From positions 1 to 64,000 of the IMG/VR virus record IMGVR_UViG_3300045988_052641: a stretch of DNA of 64,000 nt; one strand, written 5' to 3'. The DNA comes from a virus. Made by a program: the position numbers and the translations under genes. Under the pieces are notes generated by a model. That model did no database searches and had not been told where the DNA came from. It was given only the letters and a program-made list of their open reading frames with translations. Position 1 is the first letter of the stretch. Each line of letters opens with the position of its first letter. Below are positions 2,713-58,820 of this stretch, in pieces.

Positions 2713-3651
2713 TTATAGCATTAAATTGTTAATACGTTTATATTCTTCAAACACTTTGTCCTCTGATTCTTCTCCCCACATACTGTGAATGAGAACACCG
2801 TAAGCACAAGGCTGGTACACAATAGGGTCTACTGCCTTCTTAGTGATTGTAACCTCTGGATTGTTTAATTGACCAGGAGGGCAAGCTACAAATAGCTCAT
2901 TTCTACCTATCTTAACAGCATCAAAGGAAACTATGTTAGAATAGCTAAAACCCTTTACATCAGCAGGAAGACCAGGATTCTTGTTAACTATACTGGACAG
3001 CCTGAGTGTGCCTTCTATATCAGGACCAACAACTATATGATTATGTGATTCTATGTATTTCTTCAGATTGTTCAATATAGTTTTGCTGTCATTATATCCA
3101 TAGTTGATACCTGTAACATAATAATATGCTCCATTAGTACACTCCAACCCCAAATCAGAGAACATTGGTCCTTCACCATTAAGCTTGCGCTTAACTTTTA
3201 TGATTTCTCTGATGTTGCGGTCAGGAATTACTCCAGTGTATTGTTTTAGTAGACCTTTGACAAGTTTATATTTCTTACAAACTTCATCAAATTGTTTAGA
3301 GCCAACCAAAAGAGTACTCTCTCCGAACACCTCTCTTGCACGCTTTACGAAATTAAATAGGTTCTTAGCGCGCATGGCATCCAGAGCTATCTGATTATAT
3401 TCCGATATTTTAGCTTGCAATAGCCTGGCATTCTTTGAGCTACCTAGCCCAGCATCAACCAACGTGTTGTATTCTCTTACTAATGTATCTCTATTAGGAA
3501 TATCAACTGATGTCTTGGAAACAGAACGTAGATATTCCTCCATACATAAAGCAAGAGCCATAGCTATGTTGGACTGAATAGTCATCACCGGCACGTCAAC
3601 CACTTCTGGAGTTATAACTTCAGAATCATTGCGTTTTAGAAATCTAAACAT
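2713..3651 (-). CDS. paralog family protein A (shared C-terminal motif V(L/M/G)I(H/V)SxWG(E/V)ExxD)
   Basis: 312 aa; C-terminus VLIHSMWGEESEDKVFEEY matches ORFs 5668..6534 and 10559..11404; N-terminal AGLG motif also shared. Confidence 0.6.
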   Translation of the reverse strand: MFRFLKRNDSEVITPEVVDVPVMTIQSNIAMALALCMEEYLRSVSKTSVDIPNRDTLVREYNTLVDAGLGSSKNARLLQAKISEYNQIALDAMRAKNLFNFVKRAREVFGESTLLVGSKQFDEVCKKYKLVKGLLKQYTGVIPDRNIREIIKVKRKLNGEGPMFSDLGLECTNGAYYYVTGINYGYNDSKTILNNLKKYIESHNHIVVGPDIEGTLRLSSIVNKNPGLPADVKGFSYSNIVSFDAVKIGRNELFVACPPGQLNNPEVTITKKAVDPIVYQPCAYGVLIHSMWGEESEDKVFEEYKRINNLML

Positions 3652-29596: not shown

Positions 29597-29898
29597 CTCT
29601 TGTTAAATTTATTGTTATGAGAGTCTTTCTTTATTCTAAACAATAAACAAGCGGCATTACGGCAATCGGACATACGTTAACCCGCTCGCCACTTACAGAC
29701 CGTAATGCACACTTGACCAGGCAGGAAAGAGGTTTGCTTGGTGACCTATCTGCATGCTGATTATATAATACAGACCGTGTAGATTCTCTCTTATACACAA
29801 TATCTATAGTAGATTTGCACTACTGTTTCCTGATGCTTAATCAGGTGAACTCCTACTGTTCGAATAGATACAGGTTTCAACTCTTTGATATAGCCTTT

Positions 29899-29920
29899 AA
29901 GTCATAGACATACTCCGGAG
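29899..29920. promoter_or_regulatory. 22-bp perfect palindrome AGACATACTCCGGAGTATGTCT
   Basis: read directly; lies in a 380-nt non-coding gap downstream of ORF 29977..30672. Confidence 0.5.
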
Positions 29921-29976
29921 TATGTCTACTGGTTCTTCAGACCAAGTTTTGCTACCACCATTCGTCAATAGTGGAT

Positions 29977-31824: not shown

Positions 31825-31852
31825 AAAATTGATATTTAAACGTTAATAATAG

Positions 31853-32453
31853 TGGACCTAGAGGGATTCGAACCCTCGTCCAGACAACTCTCATTAATAA
31901 GATTACGTGTGTCTCTATTTTATTACATCAGCTGTTGAGTTCAGCATGTAGGTAGTTTTACTAAGAAGCTGAGTGTTAATTCACCAATTACGTCTCCTCG
32001 TAAGGCTACGACTTAGTTGTTCACAAACTACCAAACTGGGCTTGACCGAACGGTCGCTCCACCACTCCATTTACGTTGGAGAACGGATGATATTTCAGAG
32101 ATTCGTCACACCTCATGGACCACATCTTCCATCTGCTTTATGACATTAGGAGATTTCAGCTTTACTAACCTTTGGCTTTCAAGTTAATGCATCTAAGCTT
32201 CACTGTAACCTTGCAGGTACTATGACTCTTCCCCGCAGGCCTCGTTATAGCACTTAGATACAAACCTCTTCTGTTTCTAGGTCTCTCCGTTAACCCGACT
32301 TAGAGCTAAATTAATAGATAAGCCAGCAGCTTAGGCTGCCATTCTGTTGTAGTCGATTTCAGCAACTATTGTTTGTATCATTATTAAAGAGTTGGTACGA
32401 ACTCTACACGTCTTACTAACTTGTAATCGCCTGTCAAAGCCAAATCTAGGCCC
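31853..32453 (-). ncRNA. ssrA: tmRNA (ssrA-like), ~600 nt, tag peptide AEIDYNRMAA
   Basis: 5' GGGCCTAGATTTGGCTTTGACAGG matches tmRNA 5' consensus (GGGGCUGAUUCUGGAUUCGACGGG); acceptor GGGCCTA/TAGGTCC with G3-U70; resume context AATAGTT-GCT at nt 91 followed by GCT GAA ATC GAC TAC AAC AGA ATG GCA GCC TAA; 3' end GGACGAGGGTTCGAATCCCTC-TAGGTCC-A mirrors E. coli GGACGGGGGUUCAAAUCCCCC-CGGCUCC-A. Confidence 0.7.
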
Positions 32454-52536: not shown

Positions 52537-53112
52537 ATGAAAGTATTCCTATTTGATAATGGTACTAATTCGGTGATTGTGAATGAGCCAGAGGTTCTTC
52601 TTATTAAGGAGTTCGCAGCTCTATGGACTAATGAAAGGAATAAGACCAAAGAAGACCCTACGGGAGTTTGCAAATCAAGAGCTTATAGAGAGCTTGTTTA
52701 CATATGGCTAATGTTAGATTGGGCATCTCCATACTCTGATTATACAGAGCAAGAAAGACATCAATCATGTCTTCAGGATGCTAATTTAAGTGAAGAGGAA
52801 TGGGCAGACCCAATCTTCAGAGCCGCATGTAGGAAGTACAGAGATATTCAAAACGAATCTAGAGCACTTAAACTCATTAAGTCTGCTCAAAGTGTAGTCG
52901 ATAGAATTACTGATTACTTTGACACCATAGATTTATCCGAAAGAGACCCAGTTACTAATAGACCTGTTTGGAAAGTGGCTGATGTAATGAAAGAAATGCA
53001 ATCAGTTTCTAAGGTTATAGAAGAACTTAAAACTCTTGAGTATATGTACAAGAAAGAGCAAGAAGAAGAGACTGGTATCAGAGGTGAAGGTAAGAAAGGA
53101 CATTTAGATTAA
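52537..53112 (+). CDS. hypothetical protein (positional candidate for small terminase subunit)
   Basis: 191 aa ORF immediately upstream of terL. Confidence 0.35.
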   Translation: MKVFLFDNGTNSVIVNEPEVLLIKEFAALWTNERNKTKEDPTGVCKSRAYRELVYIWLMLDWASPYSDYTEQERHQSCLQDANLSEEEWADPIFRAACRKYRDIQNESRALKLIKSAQSVVDRITDYFDTIDLSERDPVTNRPVWKVADVMKEMQSVSKVIEELKTLEYMYKKEQEEETGIRGEGKKGHLD

Positions 53113-53114
53113 TT

Positions 53115-53702
53115 ATGGCTGGACGTGGCAGACCTAAGAAGAAAGTCGAAATTCCAGAAACAGTTCAAGAGTTAATACAGAGAGTAGAACCAGAGTTAAT
53201 AGAAGCTGTTCAGCATATAAATCCTGTCATAGAGGATAATTCAATTAAAACATCTAATGTTGAATGGGATGTATCATTAGATACTGAGATTAAGCATTTC
53301 GACCCTACTCTATCTTATGAGCTGACTGGATATCGACCAGTGGATGAAGAAAGAGGACTGGATTTTAATCCAGAGTGGTTCACTGAAGCTAGACAGATTA
53401 AACTAAGAAACGGTAAATACTGTGCTTATCCGGAGGGAACAAAGAAGTATAATGACTTTTGGGACGAAGAGGTTAGAAGATGTAATCAAGGATACGAATC
53501 ACATGGATATAGAATTACAGGTGATAATTACTTCTTCCTTAATTATTATAGGTTGAAGAATACTGATGTATCTCAAGCTGGTGCTGGTCGTGAAACTACA
53601 TTTCCTTCATTCTTTAGTAAGCAGTATGAGTACTTTCATTACATAGAAATGTGTGAGAAGTTGAAGAAGGATGTGTGCGCCCTTAAAGCTCGTGGAGTCG
53701 GT
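53115..53702 (+). CDS. terL: large terminase subunit, exon 1 (ends inside Walker A: ...CALKARGVG)
   Basis: N-terminal region aligns to T4 gp17 ...ACNLSRQLGKT block; ORF stops at TGA directly after GGT. Confidence 0.65.
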
Positions 53703-54672
53703 TGACACAATAAACTAAAGCCGACTATAAATTCCGCAAAATCGGTGAAGACTAACGTGATTAATCACTTATTAAATTTAATATTATGACTAAGAAGGAA
53801 CAATTAAAATTTATTGAGGATAACTATCCCTTATACAACAATCATATATCTAACAGAAGAATAAGACATACATTCTTCGATACAATCGAAACTGAACTAC
53901 AAGCTTATCTGCTTGGATTTTATGCCGCTGATGGCAGTATTGATGAGAAACGCAAAACCTTAAGAGTTCATTTGCAGTCTGGAGATTCTGAAATAGTGTA
54001 CTTATTTAAAGATAGTATAAGTCCAGACGCTAGAACGTTTACCGTAGCACCACATATTGTAACTGGAAGAAACGGTATGAAAGTAAATGCCCATGCATCA
54101 TTTGGAGTTGACATTACTAGTTCCAAATTATGTAATGCCTTAGTAGACTTAGGGATAGGATATAATAAAAGCGTAGCAGAACTCAAAATTCCAAGCATTC
54201 CTGAGGACCTTGTGAAACATTTCATCAGAGGTTATTTTGATGGAGATGGGTGTATTACTGGATGGTTAGCTACAGAGAAAGGTAAAGCTGACAGAGTTAG
54301 ATATAAGTTTGATATATGTAGTAAAACAATTACTATGTTGTCTGATATACAGAAGGTTCTTTCTAAGAATGATATTAATGTAAATATTAATTATCTTAAA
54401 CGTGATGATATGTATAGGATATCTACTTCATCTAAAAGCGAAGTGAGTAAACTATATCATTATCTATATAATGATGCTAATTTCTATTTATCAAGAAAGT
54501 TTAATAAGTTTAGTTACTATGTTAATACCGAGGTAAGTCAGCTCATCGCTGACCACCGTAACGCGCAGGAGGTGAACGTTAATGAGAGTAATAATCCTCC
54601 CACGAGTGCGGAACATTCTATAAAAGAATGAATATGTGCGCTGACCTTATAGGAAACTATAAGAAGTATAGG
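53703..54672 (+). mobile_element. group I intron with embedded LAGLIDADG homing endonuclease gene
   Basis: intron internal guide sequence GCCGACT (53720-53726) pairs with last 7 exon nt AGTCGGT giving the conserved U-G at the 5' splice site; three different reading frames for exon1/HE/exon2 exclude an intein; 3' boundary approximate. Confidence 0.65.
53786..54631 (+). CDS. LAGLIDADG homing endonuclease (two-motif, monomeric type)
   Basis: LLGFYAADGSI and IRGYFDGDGCI motifs. Confidence 0.8.
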   Translation: MTKKEQLKFIEDNYPLYNNHISNRRIRHTFFDTIETELQAYLLGFYAADGSIDEKRKTLRVHLQSGDSEIVYLFKDSISPDARTFTVAPHIVTGRNGMKVNAHASFGVDITSSKLCNALVDLGIGYNKSVAELKIPSIPEDLVKHFIRGYFDGDGCITGWLATEKGKADRVRYKFDICSKTITMLSDIQKVLSKNDINVNINYLKRDDMYRISTSSKSEVSKLYHYLYNDANFYLSRKFNKFSYYVNTEVSQLIADHRNAQEVNVNESNNPPTSAEHSIKE

Positions 54673-56388
54673 ATAAAAAGCCTATACGATAACAAAGTGT
54701 TTAGTGAAATTGCAGCATCTTTAGGAGTTAGGTTATATACAACTGTTAGAGGTTCACATGCAGTATATGTAGCATTTACCGAGAAATTCGTTAGTGACGT
54801 GCTTCGTAAATGCTGGGAACAGCTTGAATATTTAAATGCTGATACAGAAGGTGGTATGAGACATCTAAGACAGAAGTATAATTCTGATATGCATAAGAGA
54901 GCTTCTCTTCTTACTAAAGACAGAGAAGAATTTGGATTCATGTCAGACATTATTGGCTTCGTAGTAGATGTTCCTCGTAAGCTACGTGGAGACCGTGTGG
55001 ATAGATTGTTCTTTGAAGAATCTGGTTCTAATCCAATTCTAGTAAAGACTTACTTACAGAGTACAGCTCTTGTAGAAATTCTAGGTAATAAATTCGGAAC
55101 CAGATTTGTATGGGGAACAGGTGGAGACCAGGGACCTGCACTTGACGGACTTAGTAAGATGTTTTATAATCCAGCTGGTTATAATTTCTTACCTTATAAA
55201 CACAATCATACTAAAGACGGTTCTTACGCTTTTACTTCATTCTTCATACCTGCCTATACATTTGTAGCAGCAAATGGATATGTAGACGATAGAGGAGTTA
55301 CTAATACTGCGAAGGCTAAGAAGTTCTATTTAGACCAAAGAGAGGCTCTACTAGCTAACCCGAAGGAGCATTTAATTGCATGTGCAGAGTTCTGTTTTAC
55401 TCCTGACGATGCCTTGGCTCTAGAAGGAGATAACCAGTTTAATACTGTATTGTTAAGTGAGCAACTTGCTAATATCAAACTACATAAACTGGGACCACAT
55501 ATTGATGTAGGTCAGTTAGAGTATAATTTTACTAACAACCAGCACACAGAGGAAGCAATTGATAGTGTAAGATTTGTTAGTAACCCCAAAGGTAAAGTTA
55601 AGATACTTGAACATCCGATTAAAGGAGAGCATGGAGCTGTGCCTAGAAATTTATACGTTGCTGGTATTGACGGTATTGATATGGGTAGTGAAGACACTTC
55701 TGATAAGACTCAAGACCCTTCTGATTTCTGTGTAGTAGTTAAAAAGAGAGCTTATGGGTTAGATGAACCTAAAATAGTGTGCTATTATAGGGACAGACCT
55801 AAGACTTTACGTGAAGCACATATGACATGTCTTAAGATATTGCAGTATTACGATTGCCAAGCAGTTCTTGAATCTACTAGAATGTCTACTCTGCAATTCT
55901 TTAGAGAGAAACATAAAGAGAATAGACATTTGATGAGAAGACCTAGAGCTACTCAATCTGACATACAAGGAGGTCGTAGTAAACAATTCGGAGCTCCTGC
56001 TACTGAAGTAGTAATTAGGCATCAATTAGATTTAATAGCTCAACATATAGAAGATTATTGTCATAATATATGGTTTGAAGAAATTCTAGAAGAAGCAATT
56101 AAATACAGTTATGAGAATAAACGTAAGTTTGATATTATAGCTGCATGGGGTATGTGCGAATTAGGAGACGAGGAATTAATGGGGGTAGTTCCTAAAGAAA
56201 TGGACAGTCCTAATAACAAACTAAGACCTTTCGGTTATTGGGTTGACGAAAGAGGAATTAGACATAAAGGAGTTATTCCAGAGAAGCAACAGATAGTACC
56301 TAAGTTTAATTTATGGCCTACACAATACGATGACCCTACAAGAATTAGAAGTAGCAATCAGAGATTTATTCAAACAGATTTATCATAA
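54673..56388 (+). CDS. terL: large terminase subunit, exon 2 (resumes ~IKS of Walker A; Walker B RLFFEESG; C-terminal nuclease domain)
   Basis: VSDVLRKCWEQLEYL and PRKLRGDRVDRLFFEESG align with T4 gp17 SAEVLDRTKQAIELL and [20 protein letters not shown]; D-rich VAGIDGIDMGSEDTSD nuclease-like motif. Confidence 0.6.
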   Translation: MKSLYDNKVFSEIAASLGVRLYTTVRGSHAVYVAFTEKFVSDVLRKCWEQLEYLNADTEGGMRHLRQKYNSDMHKRASLLTKDREEFGFMSDIIGFVVDVPRKLRGDRVDRLFFEESGSNPILVKTYLQSTALVEILGNKFGTRFVWGTGGDQGPALDGLSKMFYNPAGYNFLPYKHNHTKDGSYAFTSFFIPAYTFVAANGYVDDRGVTNTAKAKKFYLDQREALLANPKEHLIACAEFCFTPDDALALEGDNQFNTVLLSEQLANIKLHKLGPHIDVGQLEYNFTNNQHTEEAIDSVRFVSNPKGKVKILEHPIKGEHGAVPRNLYVAGIDGIDMGSEDTSDKTQDPSDFCVVVKKRAYGLDEPKIVCYYRDRPKTLREAHMTCLKILQYYDCQAVLESTRMSTLQFFREKHKENRHLMRRPRATQSDIQGGRSKQFGAPATEVVIRHQLDLIAQHIEDYCHNIWFEEILEEAIKYSYENKRKFDIIAAWGMCELGDEELMGVVPKEMDSPNNKLRPFGYWVDERGIRHKGVIPEKQQIVPKFNLWPTQYDDPTRIRSSNQRFIQTDLS

Positions 56389-56618
56389 AGAATATGTGGC
56401 TAAATTAAAGCTAGAAGAGCTACAAACTGCCGAGGGGACACATAGAGGTTATAAGTTAACACTTGGCATGAATAATATAGACAAGCCACTTATTATATCG
56501 TTTGAAGGTGGTGAAGTAGCATATCTTAAATTTCTTAGACAGGAATTAAGAGATAGAAGATTAGGCGACACACATTATTTCCTAGGATATAAACAATATA
56601 ACGGATTAGAGAGTTGTA

Positions 56619-58820
56619 ATGAGTGCACAGAACAGGAGTGATGAGTACTTAATGGAGCATATTGATAAGGCAGTATCAGAATTAGTATTTCCTAAGTACA
56701 AATTACAGAAAGCATATAATTATTATAATGGATATAGAGATGCCGAACAATATAGGTATCTAGAAGAGAATTTCGGAATAGGCAATCCTACTTCTATAGA
56801 ATTCACTCCTCTTATCAGGAAGCATGTTGATGCTTTACTTGGAGAATACCTAGGTACTCCATTACTGCCTAAAGTGTCATGCAAGGATAAAGAAACTATA
56901 TCTAAGATATCTAGAGATAAGGAATTACAAATTAATAAAGAAGTATATCAATACTTACAACAACATCTTAACAATCAGATACTAGCGTTCTTAGGAGGAC
57001 AAGAAGTAACTGATAAGGCTGTAGAGGCTCAACTTAATAAGTTAGTAGAAGATATCAATAATAGCTTTGTTAGCGAGTATGAAATAGCTGCACAGAATGT
57101 TGTTGAGTATATAATCCAATCTAGAGATATTAACTTACTTACTAAGTTAAAGAACCTGTTACTTGACTTACTAGTAACTGGCATGAGCTTTTACCAGGTT
57201 CATCCTAGTAGGAAGAGAACTAATATAGAAATAGAGGTATTAGACCCACGTAATGTATTCGTTGATAGAAATCCAGAATCTGTATATGTTAGAGATAGCT
57301 ACAGAGTAGTTATTAGACGTTGGTTAACTAAGCAACAAATACTTAATAAATATGGTCCTCAACTAGATACAAGTAGCATCAATGAATTAGAGGAGATGTT
57401 TGAGGGATATTACGATAGTAGTTATATATATGTACGCGCCATGAGCAATCAAGCTACTGGAGCTCCTATTACAGACGGACTCGAGGCGGGTAAAGAAGTA
57501 ATACCCGGATTCCCTACCGACTACTATGAGACTTACAATTATAAGTTAATACCTGTGTTTGAAGTTGAGTGGATTGATGTTGATAAAGAAGGAGAAGATT
57601 ATGTAGAGAATAGATATGAAGGAGTTAAAATCGGAGAATCTATTTACATTCTTACTGGTAAATCTCTTGATGTAGTTAGAACTAAAGATAATCCTACACA
57701 CTGTGGATTGTCAGTTAATGGTTTGTTCTTTGTAAACAGAAGTAACGAACCATATTCACTTGTGCTTGCATGTTCACATCTTCAAGACAAGTACGATTTG
57801 ATTACTTTCTTTAGGGACAATGTAATTGCTAATAGTGGTACTAGTGGAGACTGGATTGACTTTAGTATGCTACCTATGGCTCTTGGTGATGATTTGACTG
57901 AAAGATTGCAGAAATTCATTGCCTATAAGAAGACTGGTGTGGCTCCTATTGATACTTCACAAGAAGGTAGGGCATTTAATAACAATACTTCTTTTGCTGG
58001 ATTCGATGACTTGTTAAAAGCTGATACTATTCAGGCATTTAATATGGCGTTGCAGATGTTAGAAGAGCAGACATCATCTATTACTGGAGTGTTTAGAGAG
58101 AGATTAAATGGAATAGAAACTAGGGATGCTGTTAGTAATGTTAAGGCAGGTATGAGAAACTCTTATATCATTACTAAATCTTACTATCAACAAATGGATA
58201 CTTTGGCAGAGGATATTCTGATTGATTCTCTTAATTGTGCTAAGAAGGTATGGAAACATAAACCACTTACTGGAACTTTAGTGCTAGGTGACAAACTACA
58301 GAAAGTATTTACTGCTCTCCCTGAACATTTTACTTTTACTGACTATGATATTCATGTAATAGCTAGTAGTAGAATTATGGAGGAAATGCAGAACATGCAA
58401 CAGTTAATGATTGAATTCATTAAGAGTGGTCAACTAGACCCAGACATAGCTATGGAGTGCATGACTGCCAGAAGTATGACTGAACTCAAATCTAAATTGT
58501 CTAAAGCATTTCAAAAGAGAAGAGAAGAAACTCAGAACACTGCGCAGATGCAACAACAGAACGAAGAGCTACAGAAGCAACTTCAAAAGGCGGAACAAGA
58601 GAAAGAGCAGCTTAATAATAAGATTGCATCTCTTAATGAAGCTAAGATTGCTATTGAAAGACAAAAGGTTGAATATGACTATGAGATTGGAATTATTAAG
58701 GCTAATGCTGATAGAGATTATAAGCAGAGTACTTCTGACAATGACACCAAAAGAACAGATATTGAGATAGCCCAATTGTACGATGGGAATCAGCAGAATA
58801 ACGAAGTGAAGAACGTATAA
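56619..58820 (+). CDS. putative portal protein
   Basis: 733 aa gene immediately after terL; assignment positional only. Confidence 0.35.
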   Translation: MSAQNRSDEYLMEHIDKAVSELVFPKYKLQKAYNYYNGYRDAEQYRYLEENFGIGNPTSIEFTPLIRKHVDALLGEYLGTPLLPKVSCKDKETISKISRDKELQINKEVYQYLQQHLNNQILAFLGGQEVTDKAVEAQLNKLVEDINNSFVSEYEIAAQNVVEYIIQSRDINLLTKLKNLLLDLLVTGMSFYQVHPSRKRTNIEIEVLDPRNVFVDRNPESVYVRDSYRVVIRRWLTKQQILNKYGPQLDTSSINELEEMFEGYYDSSYIYVRAMSNQATGAPITDGLEAGKEVIPGFPTDYYETYNYKLIPVFEVEWIDVDKEGEDYVENRYEGVKIGESIYILTGKSLDVVRTKDNPTHCGLSVNGLFFVNRSNEPYSLVLACSHLQDKYDLITFFRDNVIANSGTSGDWIDFSMLPMALGDDLTERLQKFIAYKKTGVAPIDTSQEGRAFNNNTSFAGFDDLLKADTIQAFNMALQMLEEQTSSITGVFRERLNGIETRDAVSNVKAGMRNSYIITKSYYQQMDTLAEDILIDSLNCAKKVWKHKPLTGTLVLGDKLQKVFTALPEHFTFTDYDIHVIASSRIMEEMQNMQQLMIEFIKSGQLDPDIAMECMTARSMTELKSKLSKAFQKRREETQNTAQMQQQNEELQKQLQKAEQEKEQLNNKIASLNEAKIAIERQKVEYDYEIGIIKANADRDYKQSTSDNDTKRTDIEIAQLYDGNQQNNEVKNV

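What the first reader, a model, noticed from the sequence alone, without database searches (positions are those of the whole stretch)
53115..56388. terL interrupted in the Walker A codon by a group I intron carrying a LAGLIDADG homing endonuclease
ORF 53115-53705 ends at a TGA directly after ...CALKARGVG. The downstream ORF in a different frame continues (I)KS...RLFFEESG, so the Walker A and Walker B motifs are split. Between them lies an independent LAGLIDADG ORF in a third frame.

The last seven exon-1 nucleotides AGUCGGU pair perfectly with GCCGACU, 17 nt into the intervening sequence. That forms a P1 helix with the canonical terminal U-G pair, which argues for a self-splicing group I intron and not an intein.

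The exact 3' splice site, near 54670-54676, is not resolved.
Basis: partly seen in the sequence, partly recalled or inferred. Interest (0 to 1): 0.62.

Follow-up and report, generated by a model that had tools for sequence, protein, structure and literature searches.

The report
Mobile group I intron splitting terminase
The DNA-packaging (large terminase) gene of this gut phage is split inside its ATP-binding loop by a 997-base self-splicing-type group I intron that carries its own LAGLIDADG homing endonuclease gene; this is a clean, well-supported example of an already familiar kind of selfish element.

Summary
The finding is real and its main interpretation holds, but the 3' boundary was wrong. 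The insertion is window 53703-54699 (997 nt). Near-identical phages lack exactly this stretch and encode an uninterrupted 758-aa TerL reading ...KARGVG|FSEIAAS. The 3' splice site is therefore 54699|54700, not 54670-76, and there is no 'GVGKS' motif.

The group I features present are:
- P1 with a U.G pair at the 5' splice site.
- A 6-bp P10.
- A terminal G.
- A P3-P9 core with the P3/P7 pseudoknot.

The core is supported by strong covariation in 45 relatives: 95% of cells pair, against 36-48% in slid controls. A model built without the window hits the window at E 3e-16. Rfam's group I model misses the ORF-containing copy. It does find a 90%-identical ORF-less sibling at the same terL site, below the curated threshold (35 bits, E 1.5e-7).

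The 281-aa ORF (53786-54631) is an intact double-motif LAGLIDADG enzyme sitting in the P5 region. Its last ~37 codons read through the ribozyme core. Presence/absence alleles and a mosaic relative indicate recent homing.

The phage is a distant crAss-like relative, a group known to be intron-rich. I rate it a new member of a known kind, of modest interest. Splicing itself was not tested.

The parts
53115..53702 (+). terL exon 1 (196 codons). It ends ...K191-A-R-G-V-G196, and its last base is the U of GGU.
   Evidence: ORF list. phrog_6681 at 3.5e-19. The boundary is fixed by intron-less alleles L001, L233-L236.
53703..54699 (+). Group I intron, 997 nt. It begins UGA, which is the in-frame stop of exon 1, and ends ...AAAGUG (terminal G at 54699).
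   Evidence: Exactly this stretch is absent from >97% identical phages. The core structure is supported.
53696..53726 (+). P1 and the internal guide sequence. The 5' exon AGUCGGU (53696-53702) pairs with GCCGACU (53720-53726), with U53702.G53720 at the splice site. The adjacent ACUAAA (53714-53719) is the P10 half of the guide.
   Evidence: Read directly from the sequence. All intron-containing alleles keep GGAGTCGGT| at the junction.
53732..53768 (+). 5' strands of the core: P3 UUCCGCA (53732-53738), J3/4 AAA, P4 UCGGUG (53742-53747), P5 GAC (53750-53752), P5a hairpin GUGAUUAAUCAC (53757-53768). There is no P2.
   Evidence: Coordinates. Covariation of P3, P4 and P5. This stretch is 90% identical to the ORF-less L045 intron.
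53786..54631 (+). LAGLIDADG homing endonuclease gene, 281 aa. Motifs are LLGFYAADGSI (aa 42) and IRGYFDGDGCI (aa 147). It is inserted between P5a and the 3' strand of P5. Codons ~244-281 (YYVN...IKE) are encoded by ribozyme core P5'-P8, and the stop UGA (54629-54631) lies in P8/J8/7.
   Evidence: Pfam. phrog_4645 at 4e-43. 1548 homologues, including a 100% identical cluster of 411 sequences. Motif positions.
54521..54641 (+). 3' part of the catalytic core: P5' GUU (54521-23), P4' UACCGA (54526-31), P6/P6a (54532-57), J6/7 GUAAC (54558-62), P7 GCGCA (54563-67), P7.1 GGAGG/CCUCC (54568-72/54596-600), P3' UGCGGAA (54607-13), P8 hairpin (54614-30), J8/7 AAUAUG (54631-36), P7' UGCGC (54637-41).
   Evidence: Model R1, built without the window, scores 78.3 bits, E 3.3e-16 at 54500-54641. 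Covariation. The minimum-energy fold recovers P6, P7.1 and P8 with z = -4.07.
54642..54699 (+). 3' domain: P9 CUUAUAG-GAAA-CUAUAAG (54646-63), P9.1 GUAUAGG...CCUAUAC (54666-87), tail GAUAACAAAGUG with the terminal G at 54699.
   Evidence: 94% identical to the corresponding part of the DNA polymerase (I-BasI) intron of Bacillus Wphvirus phages. That part of the Bacillus intron is matched by RF00028.
54700..56388 (+). terL exon 2 (562 codons plus stop). It starts UUUAGU (F197-S198), which pairs with the guide ACUAAA to form P10. It contains RLFFEESG, the Walker B-like motif.
   Evidence: phrog_6681 at 4.3e-43. The joined exons give a 758-aa in-frame product, and the uninterrupted homologue P0001 is 758 aa, 99% identical with 100% coverage.

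Best explanation
Window 53703-54699 is a mobile group I intron of the phage IA type. It sits in phase 0 between codons G196 and F197 of the large terminase gene.

Proposed mechanism:
1. The primary transcript folds into a P1-P10 ribozyme. The guide 5'-ACUAAA|GCCGACU-3' holds both exon ends.
2. An external guanosine attacks after U53702.
3. The freed exon 1 then attacks after G54699. The exons are ligated to ...GGU|UUUAGU..., which restores an mRNA for a 758-aa TerL with an intact KARGVGFSE P-loop.
4. The exon 1 reading frame stops on the first three intron bases (UGA), so ribosomes should not run into the ribozyme.
5. The intron's P5 region carries a gene for a monomeric, double-motif LAGLIDADG endonuclease. 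This enzyme presumably cuts intron-less terL alleles at the GGAGTCGGT|TTTAGTGAA junction during co-infection. Repair from the intron-containing copy then spreads the intron together with short exon flanks.

Shown here: the exact boundaries, the RNA architecture and its covariation, an intact endonuclease gene, the presence/absence alleles, and a mosaic relative.

Inferred, not shown: that splicing occurs, that the enzyme cuts, and what its target site is.
For: 1. Precise boundaries. Phages >97% identical in terL lack exactly 997 nt and read ...KARGVG|FSEIAAS in frame. L233 and L236 carry the predicted ligated junction GGAGTCGGT|TTTAGTGAA as genomic DNA on contigs up to 89 kb.

2. Splice-site rules. 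The 7-bp P1 has a U.G pair. The 6-bp P10 lies directly next to it in the same guide. The intron ends in G.

3. Core structure. P3, P4, P5, P6/6a, P7, P7.1 and P8 were written on an alignment of 45 relatives.
- 95.4% of cells pair, against 36-48% for slid controls.
- 28 of 41 pairs show changes on both sides.
- P3 covaries at 6 of 7 pairs, P7 at 2 of 5 with 100% of cells paired, P7.1 at 5 of 5, P8 at 6 of 6.

4. Independent model. A covariance model built from 44 ORF-less relatives, without the window, hits the window once at 78.3 bits, E 3.3e-16.

5. Link to Rfam. The ORF-less 244-nt intron at the same terL site in L045 is 90% identical to the window ribozyme. RF00028 matches it end to end at 35.1 bits, E 1.5e-7, and assigns the same P1, P3, P4, P8, J8/7 and P9.

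6. Link to a studied intron. The P9-P9.1 3' domain is 94% identical to that of the Bacillus Wphvirus DNA polymerase intron that carries I-BasI. PMC11878797 lists Bastille and W.Ph. Pol among the phage genes taken for experimental splicing tests.

7. Endonuclease. Both LAGLIDADG motifs keep their acidic residues. The Pfam scores are above cut-off. There are 1548 homologues.

8. Mobility.
- The same intron plus endonuclease sits at the same site in terL genes only ~50% identical at protein level (L007, L015).
- Endonuclease remnants occur in L057 and L096, and ORF-less forms in L045 and L037.
- L074 has an exon 1 that is 99.5-100% identical to the intron-less L001 type. Its intron and about 100-200 nt of flanks are of the window type.

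9. Host gene. The gene is a terminase by fold (T4 gp17, E 2.8e-13). The insertion lies in the strand(186-191)-loop-helix(198-211) P-loop. Its residues K191, R193, G196, F197, S198 and E199 are invariant in 30 homologues.
Against: - No RNA data were available, so splicing and endonuclease activity are inferred.
- Rfam RF00028 gives no hit on the window, either at the gathering threshold or at E<=10. This holds for the whole region and for each half.
- The hit on the ORF-less sibling is below Rfam's gathering score (35.1 against 50).
- Fifteen ORF-less relatives and L003 gave no hit in larger searches.
- The P3 column of the covariation test is biased. I kept only sequences whose anchored P3 paired at >=6 of 7 positions. 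The other helices were not selected on.
- The relatives were found with a pattern taken from the window, so conservation of P4'-P6-J6/7 is partly built in.
Confidence: 0.93

Rival explanations
1. Split terminase with a free-standing endonuclease gene. The two terL ORFs would be translated separately, the second from the ATG at 54628. They would assemble into a two-piece ATPase, and the intervening DNA would be only a homing endonuclease cassette with no RNA splicing.
For: ORF 54628-56388 does begin with an ATG, in the same frame as exon 2. Rfam finds no group I model in the window. Free-standing endonuclease genes that split phage genes are known (established knowledge).
Against: - The break falls inside the invariant P-loop KARGVG|FSE. 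A two-piece protein would have to rebuild a nucleotide-binding loop from two chains.
- A 244-nt version with no ORF at all occupies the same site in L045 and has stops in the exon frame. A gene cassette does not explain that.
- The flanking RNA shows P1, P10, a terminal G and a covarying pseudoknotted core.
- The 24 codons before F197 in the second ORF are ribozyme helices P8-P9.1, which are conserved as RNA.
Confidence: 0.03
2. Dead intron. The element is a group I intron by descent but no longer splices efficiently, so this terL allele is a pseudogene or needs a helper phage or a maturase.
For: There is no experimental splicing evidence. The endonuclease ORF reads through about 110 nt of the core, so translation could interfere with folding. 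P2 is absent.
Against: - All core pairings in the window copy are intact.
- The identical endonuclease sequence occurs in a cluster of 411 sequences. The same intron-containing terL arrangement occurs in independent assemblies L014, L049, L074 and L123, with 98-100% protein identity.
- terL is essential for packaging, so a non-splicing allele should not persist or spread.
- The ORF-less sibling differs at only 10% of positions. Those in helices are largely pair-preserving, for example G-C to G-U in P3 and a G-C to A-U change in P7.
Confidence: 0.03
3. Something other than a group I intron: an intein, a group II intron, stop-codon recoding or frameshifting across the gap, or an assembly chimera.
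For: crAss-like phages do use inteins in TerL and do recode UGA/UAG (PMC7886860). This TerL is distantly crAss-like. The stop after GVG is a UGA.
Against: - The insert has stops in the exon frame and the endonuclease is in another frame, so it cannot be an intein.
- The only Pfam matches to the insert's ORF are LAGLIDADG families.
- Reading through UGA would add about 330 unrelated residues. Homologues are collinear at 758 aa without them.
- The same structure was assembled independently many times.
Confidence: 0.01

Closest known systems
Group I introns that split terL in gut phages: Jug jumbo phages (PMC12880540) and crAss-like Delta/Zeta phages (PMC7886860)
   Same: The host niche is the same (human gut) and the phages are distant relatives (TerL ~30% identical to crAss-like phages). 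terL is split by group I introns, and homing endonucleases including LAGLIDADG types are present. In Jug phages, splicing of terL introns was supported by metatranscriptome reads.
   Different: Those papers detect introns by covariance-model or endonuclease-domain searches. In the passages I read, they do not give this intron's boundaries, its structure, its P-loop position or its allele series. In crAss Delta phages TerL typically carries inteins instead. I did not check whether the window belongs to one of their named groups.
DNA polymerase intron of Bacillus phages of the Bastille/Wphvirus type, carrying I-BasI (HNH)
   Same: A 52-57-nt P9-P9.1-3' tail is 94% identical. The order J8/7-P7'-UGACC-P9(GAAA)-P9.1-GAUAACA..G is the same. 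There is an insertion between P7 and P3', which is an IA-type feature.
   Different: - The P3-P8 core sequences differ. The Bacillus intron scores 42.8 bits on RF00028 and the window scores nothing.
- The ORF lies in P8 and encodes an HNH nicking enzyme, whereas here it lies in P5 and encodes a LAGLIDADG enzyme.
- The host gene and the host phylum differ.
Phage T4 td intron with I-TevI (recalled from memory, not tested here)
   Same: It is a phage IA2 group I intron in an essential gene. The endonuclease ORF is looped out of a peripheral helix. An in-frame stop lies close to the 5' splice site and keeps ribosomes out of the ribozyme. It spreads by homing with co-conversion of flanking exon sequence.
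   Different: It encodes a GIY-YIG enzyme and the ORF is in P6. Its P4-P6 domain is much larger. Rfam recognises it readily.
Lactobacillus phage LL-H terminase intron (Mikkonen and Alatossava 1995; recalled from memory) and the Bastillevirinae Siophivirus TerL intron (PMC11878797)
   Same: These are precedents for group I introns inside phage large terminase genes (for Siophivirus).
   Different: I did not compare insertion sites or sequences. The hosts are Firmicutes.

Membership tests
Group I intron | P1 helix formed by the 5' exon end and an internal guide, with a U.G wobble pair at the 5' splice site | tested here: met
   AGUCGGU (53696-53702) pairs with GCCGACU (53720-53726), with U53702.G53720. 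The U is present in every intron-containing allele and is A in the divergent intron-less allele.
Group I intron | The intron ends in G, and the 3' exon pairs with the guide to form P10 | tested here: met
   G54699 is the last intron base, as fixed by the intron-less alleles. UUUAGU (54700-05) pairs with ACUAAA (53714-19), which lies directly 5' of the P1 guide.
Group I intron | Conserved core P3-P4-P5-P6-P7-P3'-P8-P7' with the P3/P7 pseudoknot, supported by covariation | tested here: met
   95.4% of cells pair against 36-48% in slid controls, 28 of 41 pairs have changes on both sides, and the covariation score is 0.604 against 0.06-0.15. Caveat: P3 was pre-filtered.
Group I intron | Match to Rfam RF00028 at its gathering score (50 bits) | tested here: not met
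   The window gives no hit at the gathering threshold or at E<=10. The 90%-identical ORF-less sibling L045 scores 35.1 bits, E 1.5e-7, over the full model length. This is a database threshold, not a biological criterion. The experimentally studied Bastille-type intron also falls below it (42.8 bits).
Group I intron | Removal restores an in-frame host gene collinear with uninterrupted homologues | tested here: met
   The joined exons give 758 aa in frame. P0001 is 758 aa, 99% identical, with 100% coverage. Intron-less DNA alleles exist.
Group I intron | Guanosine-dependent self-splicing | not testable with these tools
   This needs in vitro transcription and splicing, or RNA reads across 53702|54700.
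Group I intron, subgroup IA2 | Extra helix or helices (P7.1/P7.2) between P7 and P3', and a phage-type P9-P9.1 3' domain | tested here: inconclusive
   One covarying stem, P7.1, lies between P7 and P3' and has an optional inner hairpin. The 3' domain is shared with the Bastille-type intron. No subgroup-specific models (GISSD) were available, so the assignment rests partly on memory of the subgroup definitions.
LAGLIDADG homing endonuclease (double-motif, monomeric) | Two LAGLIDADG motifs with conserved acidic residues, and a profile match above the curated cut-off | tested here: met
   The motifs are LLGFYAADGSI (aa 42) and IRGYFDGDGCI (aa 147). PF14528 scores 38.5 bits (cut-off 22.5) and PF00961 scores 26.5 bits (cut-off 23.1). 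phrog_4645 scores 4.3e-43. There is no significant PDB sequence match.
LAGLIDADG homing endonuclease (double-motif, monomeric) | Cleaves the intron-less allele at or near the insertion site, and the element is mobile | tested here: inconclusive
   Cleavage cannot be tested here. Mobility is supported indirectly by presence/absence alleles, by the mosaic L074 with short window-type flanks, and by the same site being occupied in terL genes ~50% identical.
Large terminase (TerL), ASCE ATPase | Terminase ATPase plus nuclease fold, with a P-loop (strand-loop-helix) at the interrupted motif | tested here: met
   The AlphaFold model of P0001 has mean pLDDT 79.9, with strand 186-191, loop ARGVG and helix 198-211. 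Foldseek matches T4 gp17 at 2.8e-13 and also the T7, P74-26, HK97 and Sf6 terminases. The motif KxRGVGFSE is invariant. Its likeness to the deviant Walker A of lambda gpA (KSARVGYS) is from memory, and a literature search for that string found nothing.
Intein | In-frame insertion with Hint splicing blocks and no stop codons | tested here: not met
   A UGA follows G196 directly. The insert has stops in the exon frame and the endonuclease lies in another frame. There is no Hint domain.

The most novel reading that the evidence does not exclude
The window intron may belong to a very abundant, compact (about 200-250 nt without ORF), phage-restricted group I lineage that standard Rfam-based pipelines largely miss. 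Two IMG/VR pattern scans each stopped at the 120-locus limit. RF00028 finds members only when the search space is a few hundred bases, and then below threshold. If so, the intron load of gut phages and the number of 'fragmented' phage genes are systematically underestimated. In addition, the cluster of five synonymous changes at the homing site of some intron-less alleles, including an AGU-to-UCC serine codon switch, could be a natural endonuclease-resistance allele.
Probability: 0.3. Interest if true: 0.45.

Novelty: new member of a known kind. Interest (0 to 1): 0.3.

Why it matters
For annotation, this terL is one gene of 758 codons with an intron, not three genes. Gene callers and Rfam's curated threshold both get it wrong. 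The same intron family is unannotated in at least one published phage genome (PQ006093.1).

For biology, it is a tidy natural series of one homing element in one invariant ATPase motif:
- intron with an intact endonuclease;
- intron with a decaying endonuclease;
- ORF-less intron;
- empty cognate site;
- empty site recoded by synonymous changes.

This series could be used to study the homing cycle and target-site immunity in uncultured gut phages. The kind of element and its presence in phage terminase genes are already well documented.

Tried and rejected
- Rfam on the whole window at the gathering threshold and on 53500-54900 at E<=10 gave no group I hit. Each half of the intron searched alone also gave none.
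- Rfam on L003 and on 15 loci holding ORF-less relatives (55 kb) gave nothing at E<=1. This proved to be a filter and search-space effect, because the 331-nt search of L045 gave 35 bits.
- My first anchored regular expression for the family was too strict and gave only 2 hits. It was relaxed.
- Sequence searches of the spliced TerL against Pfam and PDB found nothing meaningful. Fold comparison was needed.
- The endonuclease has no significant PDB sequence match.
- Literature searches for the lambda-type Walker A string, and for terL, Walker A and group I intron together, found nothing.
- An alternative junction one base upstream (GG|U...GU|G) gives the same protein. I rejected it because it loses the U.G pair and the terminal G.
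- I checked whether the 242-nt insertion in the window's tmRNA gene was another intron. There was no hit with Rfam or with my family model.
Full report
**1. What is in the sequence**

The ORF list and the raw sequence confirm three co-directional ORFs in three different frames.
- 53115-53705 ends ...CALKARGVG followed by TGA.
- 53786-54631 encodes 281 aa.
- 54628-56388 encodes 586 aa.

The first and third ORFs both match the same terminase large-subunit family, phrog_6681. The first covers profile positions 77-189 and the third covers 254-738, at 3.5e-19 and 4.3e-43. The middle ORF matches Pfam LAGLIDADG_3 and LAGLIDADG_1 above their cut-offs, and phrog_4645 'endonuclease' at 4.3e-43. A portal gene follows at 56619.

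**2. Exact boundaries**

Megablast against phage records found MT835470.1, from human faeces. It matches the region in two pieces with about 1 kb missing. The alignment shows uninterrupted DNA reading ...GCT CGT GGA GTC GGA TTC TCC GAA ATT GCA..., which translates as KARGVGFSEIA.

- The window insertion is therefore 53703-54699, 997 nt.
- Exon 1 ends in GGU at 53702.
- The insert ends ...AAAGUG at 54699.
- Exon 2 starts UUU AGU GAA at 54700, in the frame of the 54628 ORF.
- The joined exons encode 758 aa. The protein database holds an uninterrupted 758-aa homologue that is 99% identical over 100% of the length (P0001).
- Contigs encoding P0001 fall into two classes. L233 (89 kb) and L236 carry exactly the predicted ligated junction GGAGTCGGT|TTTAGTGAA. 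L234, L235 and L001 carry GGA|TTC TCC, which differs by five synonymous changes within seven bases.

The stretch 54628-54699 is intron.

**3. Is it a group I intron?**

Rfam's RF00028 gave nothing on the window. This held at the gathering threshold, at E<=10 on the region, and on each half alone. The case therefore had to be built directly, as follows.

(a) *Splice-site rules.* P1 is AGUCGGU/GCCGACU with U53702.G53720. Directly 5' of the P1 guide lies ACUAAA, which is the perfect complement of the first six exon 2 bases (P10). The last intron base is G. The 13-nt guide is unique in the window.

(b) *Relatives.*
- Window 54640-54696 is 94% identical to a stretch of Bacillus Wphvirus phages. That stretch lies between the I-BasI gene and DNA polymerase exon 2, which is the 3' end of the known Bastille-type group I intron. 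RF00028 matches that intron at 42.8 and 25.4 bits.
- The same 57 nt occur in bajarodcaudo virus 2. There they end a 248-nt ORF-less element that shares conserved blocks with the window's 5' and 3' parts.
- Two pattern scans of IMG/VR, each stopped at the 120-locus limit, showed that this is a large family.

(c) *Covariation.* I anchored 57 distinct ORF-less members (58 counting the ORF-deleted window copy) on the invariant blocks. I then aligned 44 of them, plus L003 and the window with 53763-54512 removed. The proposed structure is P3, P4, P5, P6/6a, P7 (crossing P3), P7.1 and P8.
- 95.4% of 1818 cells form pairs, against 36-48% when partners are slid by 1-3 columns.
- 28 of 41 pairs carry changes on both sides.
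- The covariation score is 0.604 against 0.06-0.15.
- P3 covaries at 6 of 7 pairs, P7 at 2 of 5 with 100% pairing, P7.1 at 5 of 5, P8 at 6 of 6 and P6a at 6 of 6.
- Caveat: I excluded anchoring failures by requiring at least 6 of 7 P3 pairs, which biases P3 only.

(d) *Independent model.* A covariance model built from the 44 relatives without the window hits the window once, at 54500-54641, with 78.3 bits and E 3.3e-16.

(e) *Rfam link through an ORF-less sibling.* L045 has an ORF-less 244-nt intron at the same terL site (KARGVG|FSEI). It is 90% identical to the window ribozyme. When only 331 nt are searched, RF00028 aligns it end to end at 35.1 bits, E 1.5e-7. It makes the same P1, P3, P4, P8, J8/7 and P9 assignments as mine. 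The earlier negatives on relatives were therefore filter effects.

(f) *Thermodynamic fold.* The 3' 174 nt fold into P6/6a, P7.1, P8, P9 and P9.1 with z = -4.07 against shuffles.

Together these meet every sequence-level criterion for a group I intron. The single stem between P7 and P3' and the Bastille-like 3' domain point to the phage IA type. I could not run subgroup models.

**4. The endonuclease gene**

The ORF has both LAGLIDADG motifs, LLGFYAADGSI at aa 42 and IRGYFDGDGCI at aa 147, each with its acidic residues. That is the architecture of monomeric double-motif enzymes.

Comparison with L045 shows the gene is inserted just after the P5a hairpin and before the 3' strand of P5. From codon ~244 (YYVN = UAC UAU GUU AAU) the frame simply continues through P5', P4', P6, P7, P7.1, P3' and P8. 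It ends at a UGA in P8/J8/7 (54629-54631). The last ~37 residues are therefore ribozyme-encoded and lie outside the profile-matched domain (aa 16-243).

The protein has 1548 database homologues. One cluster of 411 sequences is 100% identical. Many proteins 70-76% identical come from 170-196-kb contigs.

**5. Evidence that it moves**

tblastn over the fetched loci gave the following picture.
- Near-identical phages with the same intron: L014, L049, L074, L123.
- terL genes only ~50% identical in protein, with the intron and a 75%-identical endonuclease at the same site: L007, L015.
- Copies with eroded endonuclease genes: L057 keeps aa 1-38 and 170-278, and L096 keeps aa 209-278.
- ORF-less copies: L045 and L037. 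L037 sits 4 nt upstream in the same motif. L019's 3' exon start suggests the same shifted site.
- terL genes with a second intron at the invariant WGTGGD motif: L076, L099, L041.

Every intron-containing allele listed (ten loci, including the window) has ...GGAGTCGGT| at the junction, except ORF-less L045, which has GGTGTCGGT|.

L074 is a mosaic. Over 53015-53611 it is 99.5-100% identical to the intron-less L001 type and only 88-89% identical to the window. From 53612, through the intron and about 100-200 nt beyond it, L074 matches the window at 99-100%. After that it drifts back toward L001. This is the pattern expected from homing with co-conversion of short exon flanks.

**6. The host gene and the 'Walker A' claim**

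The spliced TerL has no Pfam or PDB sequence match. An AlphaFold model of P0001, made with a 30-sequence alignment, has mean pLDDT 79.9. It matches T4 gp17 (E 2.8e-13) and the T7, P74-26, HK97, Sf6 and D6E terminases.

In the model, residues 186-191 form a strand, ARGVG forms a loop, and 198-211 form a helix, which is the P-loop arrangement. K191, R193, G196, F197, S198 and E199 are invariant across 30 homologues that are 49-89% identical to P0001. So the intron does sit in the nucleotide-binding loop. The motif is KARGVG|FSE, with the lysine at the front. It resembles the deviant Walker A I recall from lambda gpA, which I could not verify in the paper library. RLFFEESG downstream fits a Walker B.

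**7. Which phage**

The TerL is ~30% identical to TerL of crAss-like phages and ~24% identical to that of Flavobacterium phages. Close homologues sit on contigs of 130-196 kb from gut samples. The window also holds 26 tRNA genes and a tmRNA-like gene.

Large crAss-like genomes (145-192 kb) are reported to have a high density of group I introns and inteins (PMC7886860). Jug phages have terL genes split by group I introns, with metatranscriptomic support for splicing (PMC12880540). Bastillevirinae also have terL introns, and the authors note that Rfam and GISSD models miss parts of phage introns (PMC11878797).

**8. Verdict**

The element is a new, well-resolved member of a known kind. The points of mild extra interest are three:
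- a very common phage intron family is nearly invisible to Rfam's model;
- the three-allele series includes a synonymously recoded empty site;
- the endonuclease reading frame borrows its tail from the ribozyme core.

Splicing and cleavage remain untested.

Noticed in passing
window 31850-32453 (-): The Rfam tmRNA hit (84 bits, E 3.6e-31) spans 604 nt because of an insertion of about 242 nt relative to the model. ARAGORN calls no tmRNA there. The insert matches no Rfam family and does not match my intron model. The nature of the insertion is unexplained.
   Followed up: partly
window 947-33095 (-): There are 26 tRNA genes, all on the minus strand. A RAGATH-34 RNA lies at 29867-29974 (120.8 bits against a gathering score of 60.7).
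   Followed up: no
L003 2313-2560 (PQ006093.1, bajarodcaudo virus 2): A 248-nt ORF-less intron of the same family is unannotated in a published circular phage genome. Removing it fuses a 298-aa ORF that runs into the annotated CDS 2740-3336. The record instead annotates two short minus-strand CDSs at locus 2139-2392, overlapping the upstream exon and the first part of the intron.
   Followed up: partly
L076, L099, L041 (terL homologues); corresponds to window ~55114-55131: A second recurrent intron site in terL lies at the invariant WGTGGD motif (aa 334-339). L076 carries two introns, each with a LAGLIDADG ORF. The window is uninterrupted at this site.
   Followed up: partly
L001 3703-3712; L234, L235 (intron-less terL alleles): Five synonymous differences are packed into seven bases at the insertion site: GGA TTC TCC against GGT TTT AGT. 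They include a serine AGT/TCC codon-family switch. The genes are otherwise 95.7-98.4% identical to the window's joined exons. This could be a homing-site immunity allele, or it could reflect P1/P10 constraints on the intron-bearing allele.
   Followed up: partly
L057 and L096 (terL about 50% identical to the window's): These loci have the same intron at the same site, but the endonuclease gene is reduced to fragments (aa 1-38 plus 170-278 in L057, and aa 209-278 in L096). These look like stages of endonuclease decay in the homing cycle.
   Followed up: no
L037 ~1466-1725 and L019: In L037 an intron of the same family sits 4 nt upstream in the same P-loop motif (GGG GU|A GGU UUU), with a P1 adapted to that position. 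L019's 3' exon start (AGG ATT TTC AGA) suggests the same shifted site, but I did not check its 5' junction.
   Followed up: partly
NC_055889.1 (uncultured phage cr53_1) 7149-10064: The TerL match to this crAss-like phage comes in two pieces spread over 2.9 kb for about 570 residues. That suggests its terL is also interrupted.
   Followed up: no
window 56330-56641 (+): A 103-aa ORF overlaps the last 59 nt of terL in another frame. The equivalent gene is called in the intron-less relatives (L233 5219-5530).
   Followed up: no
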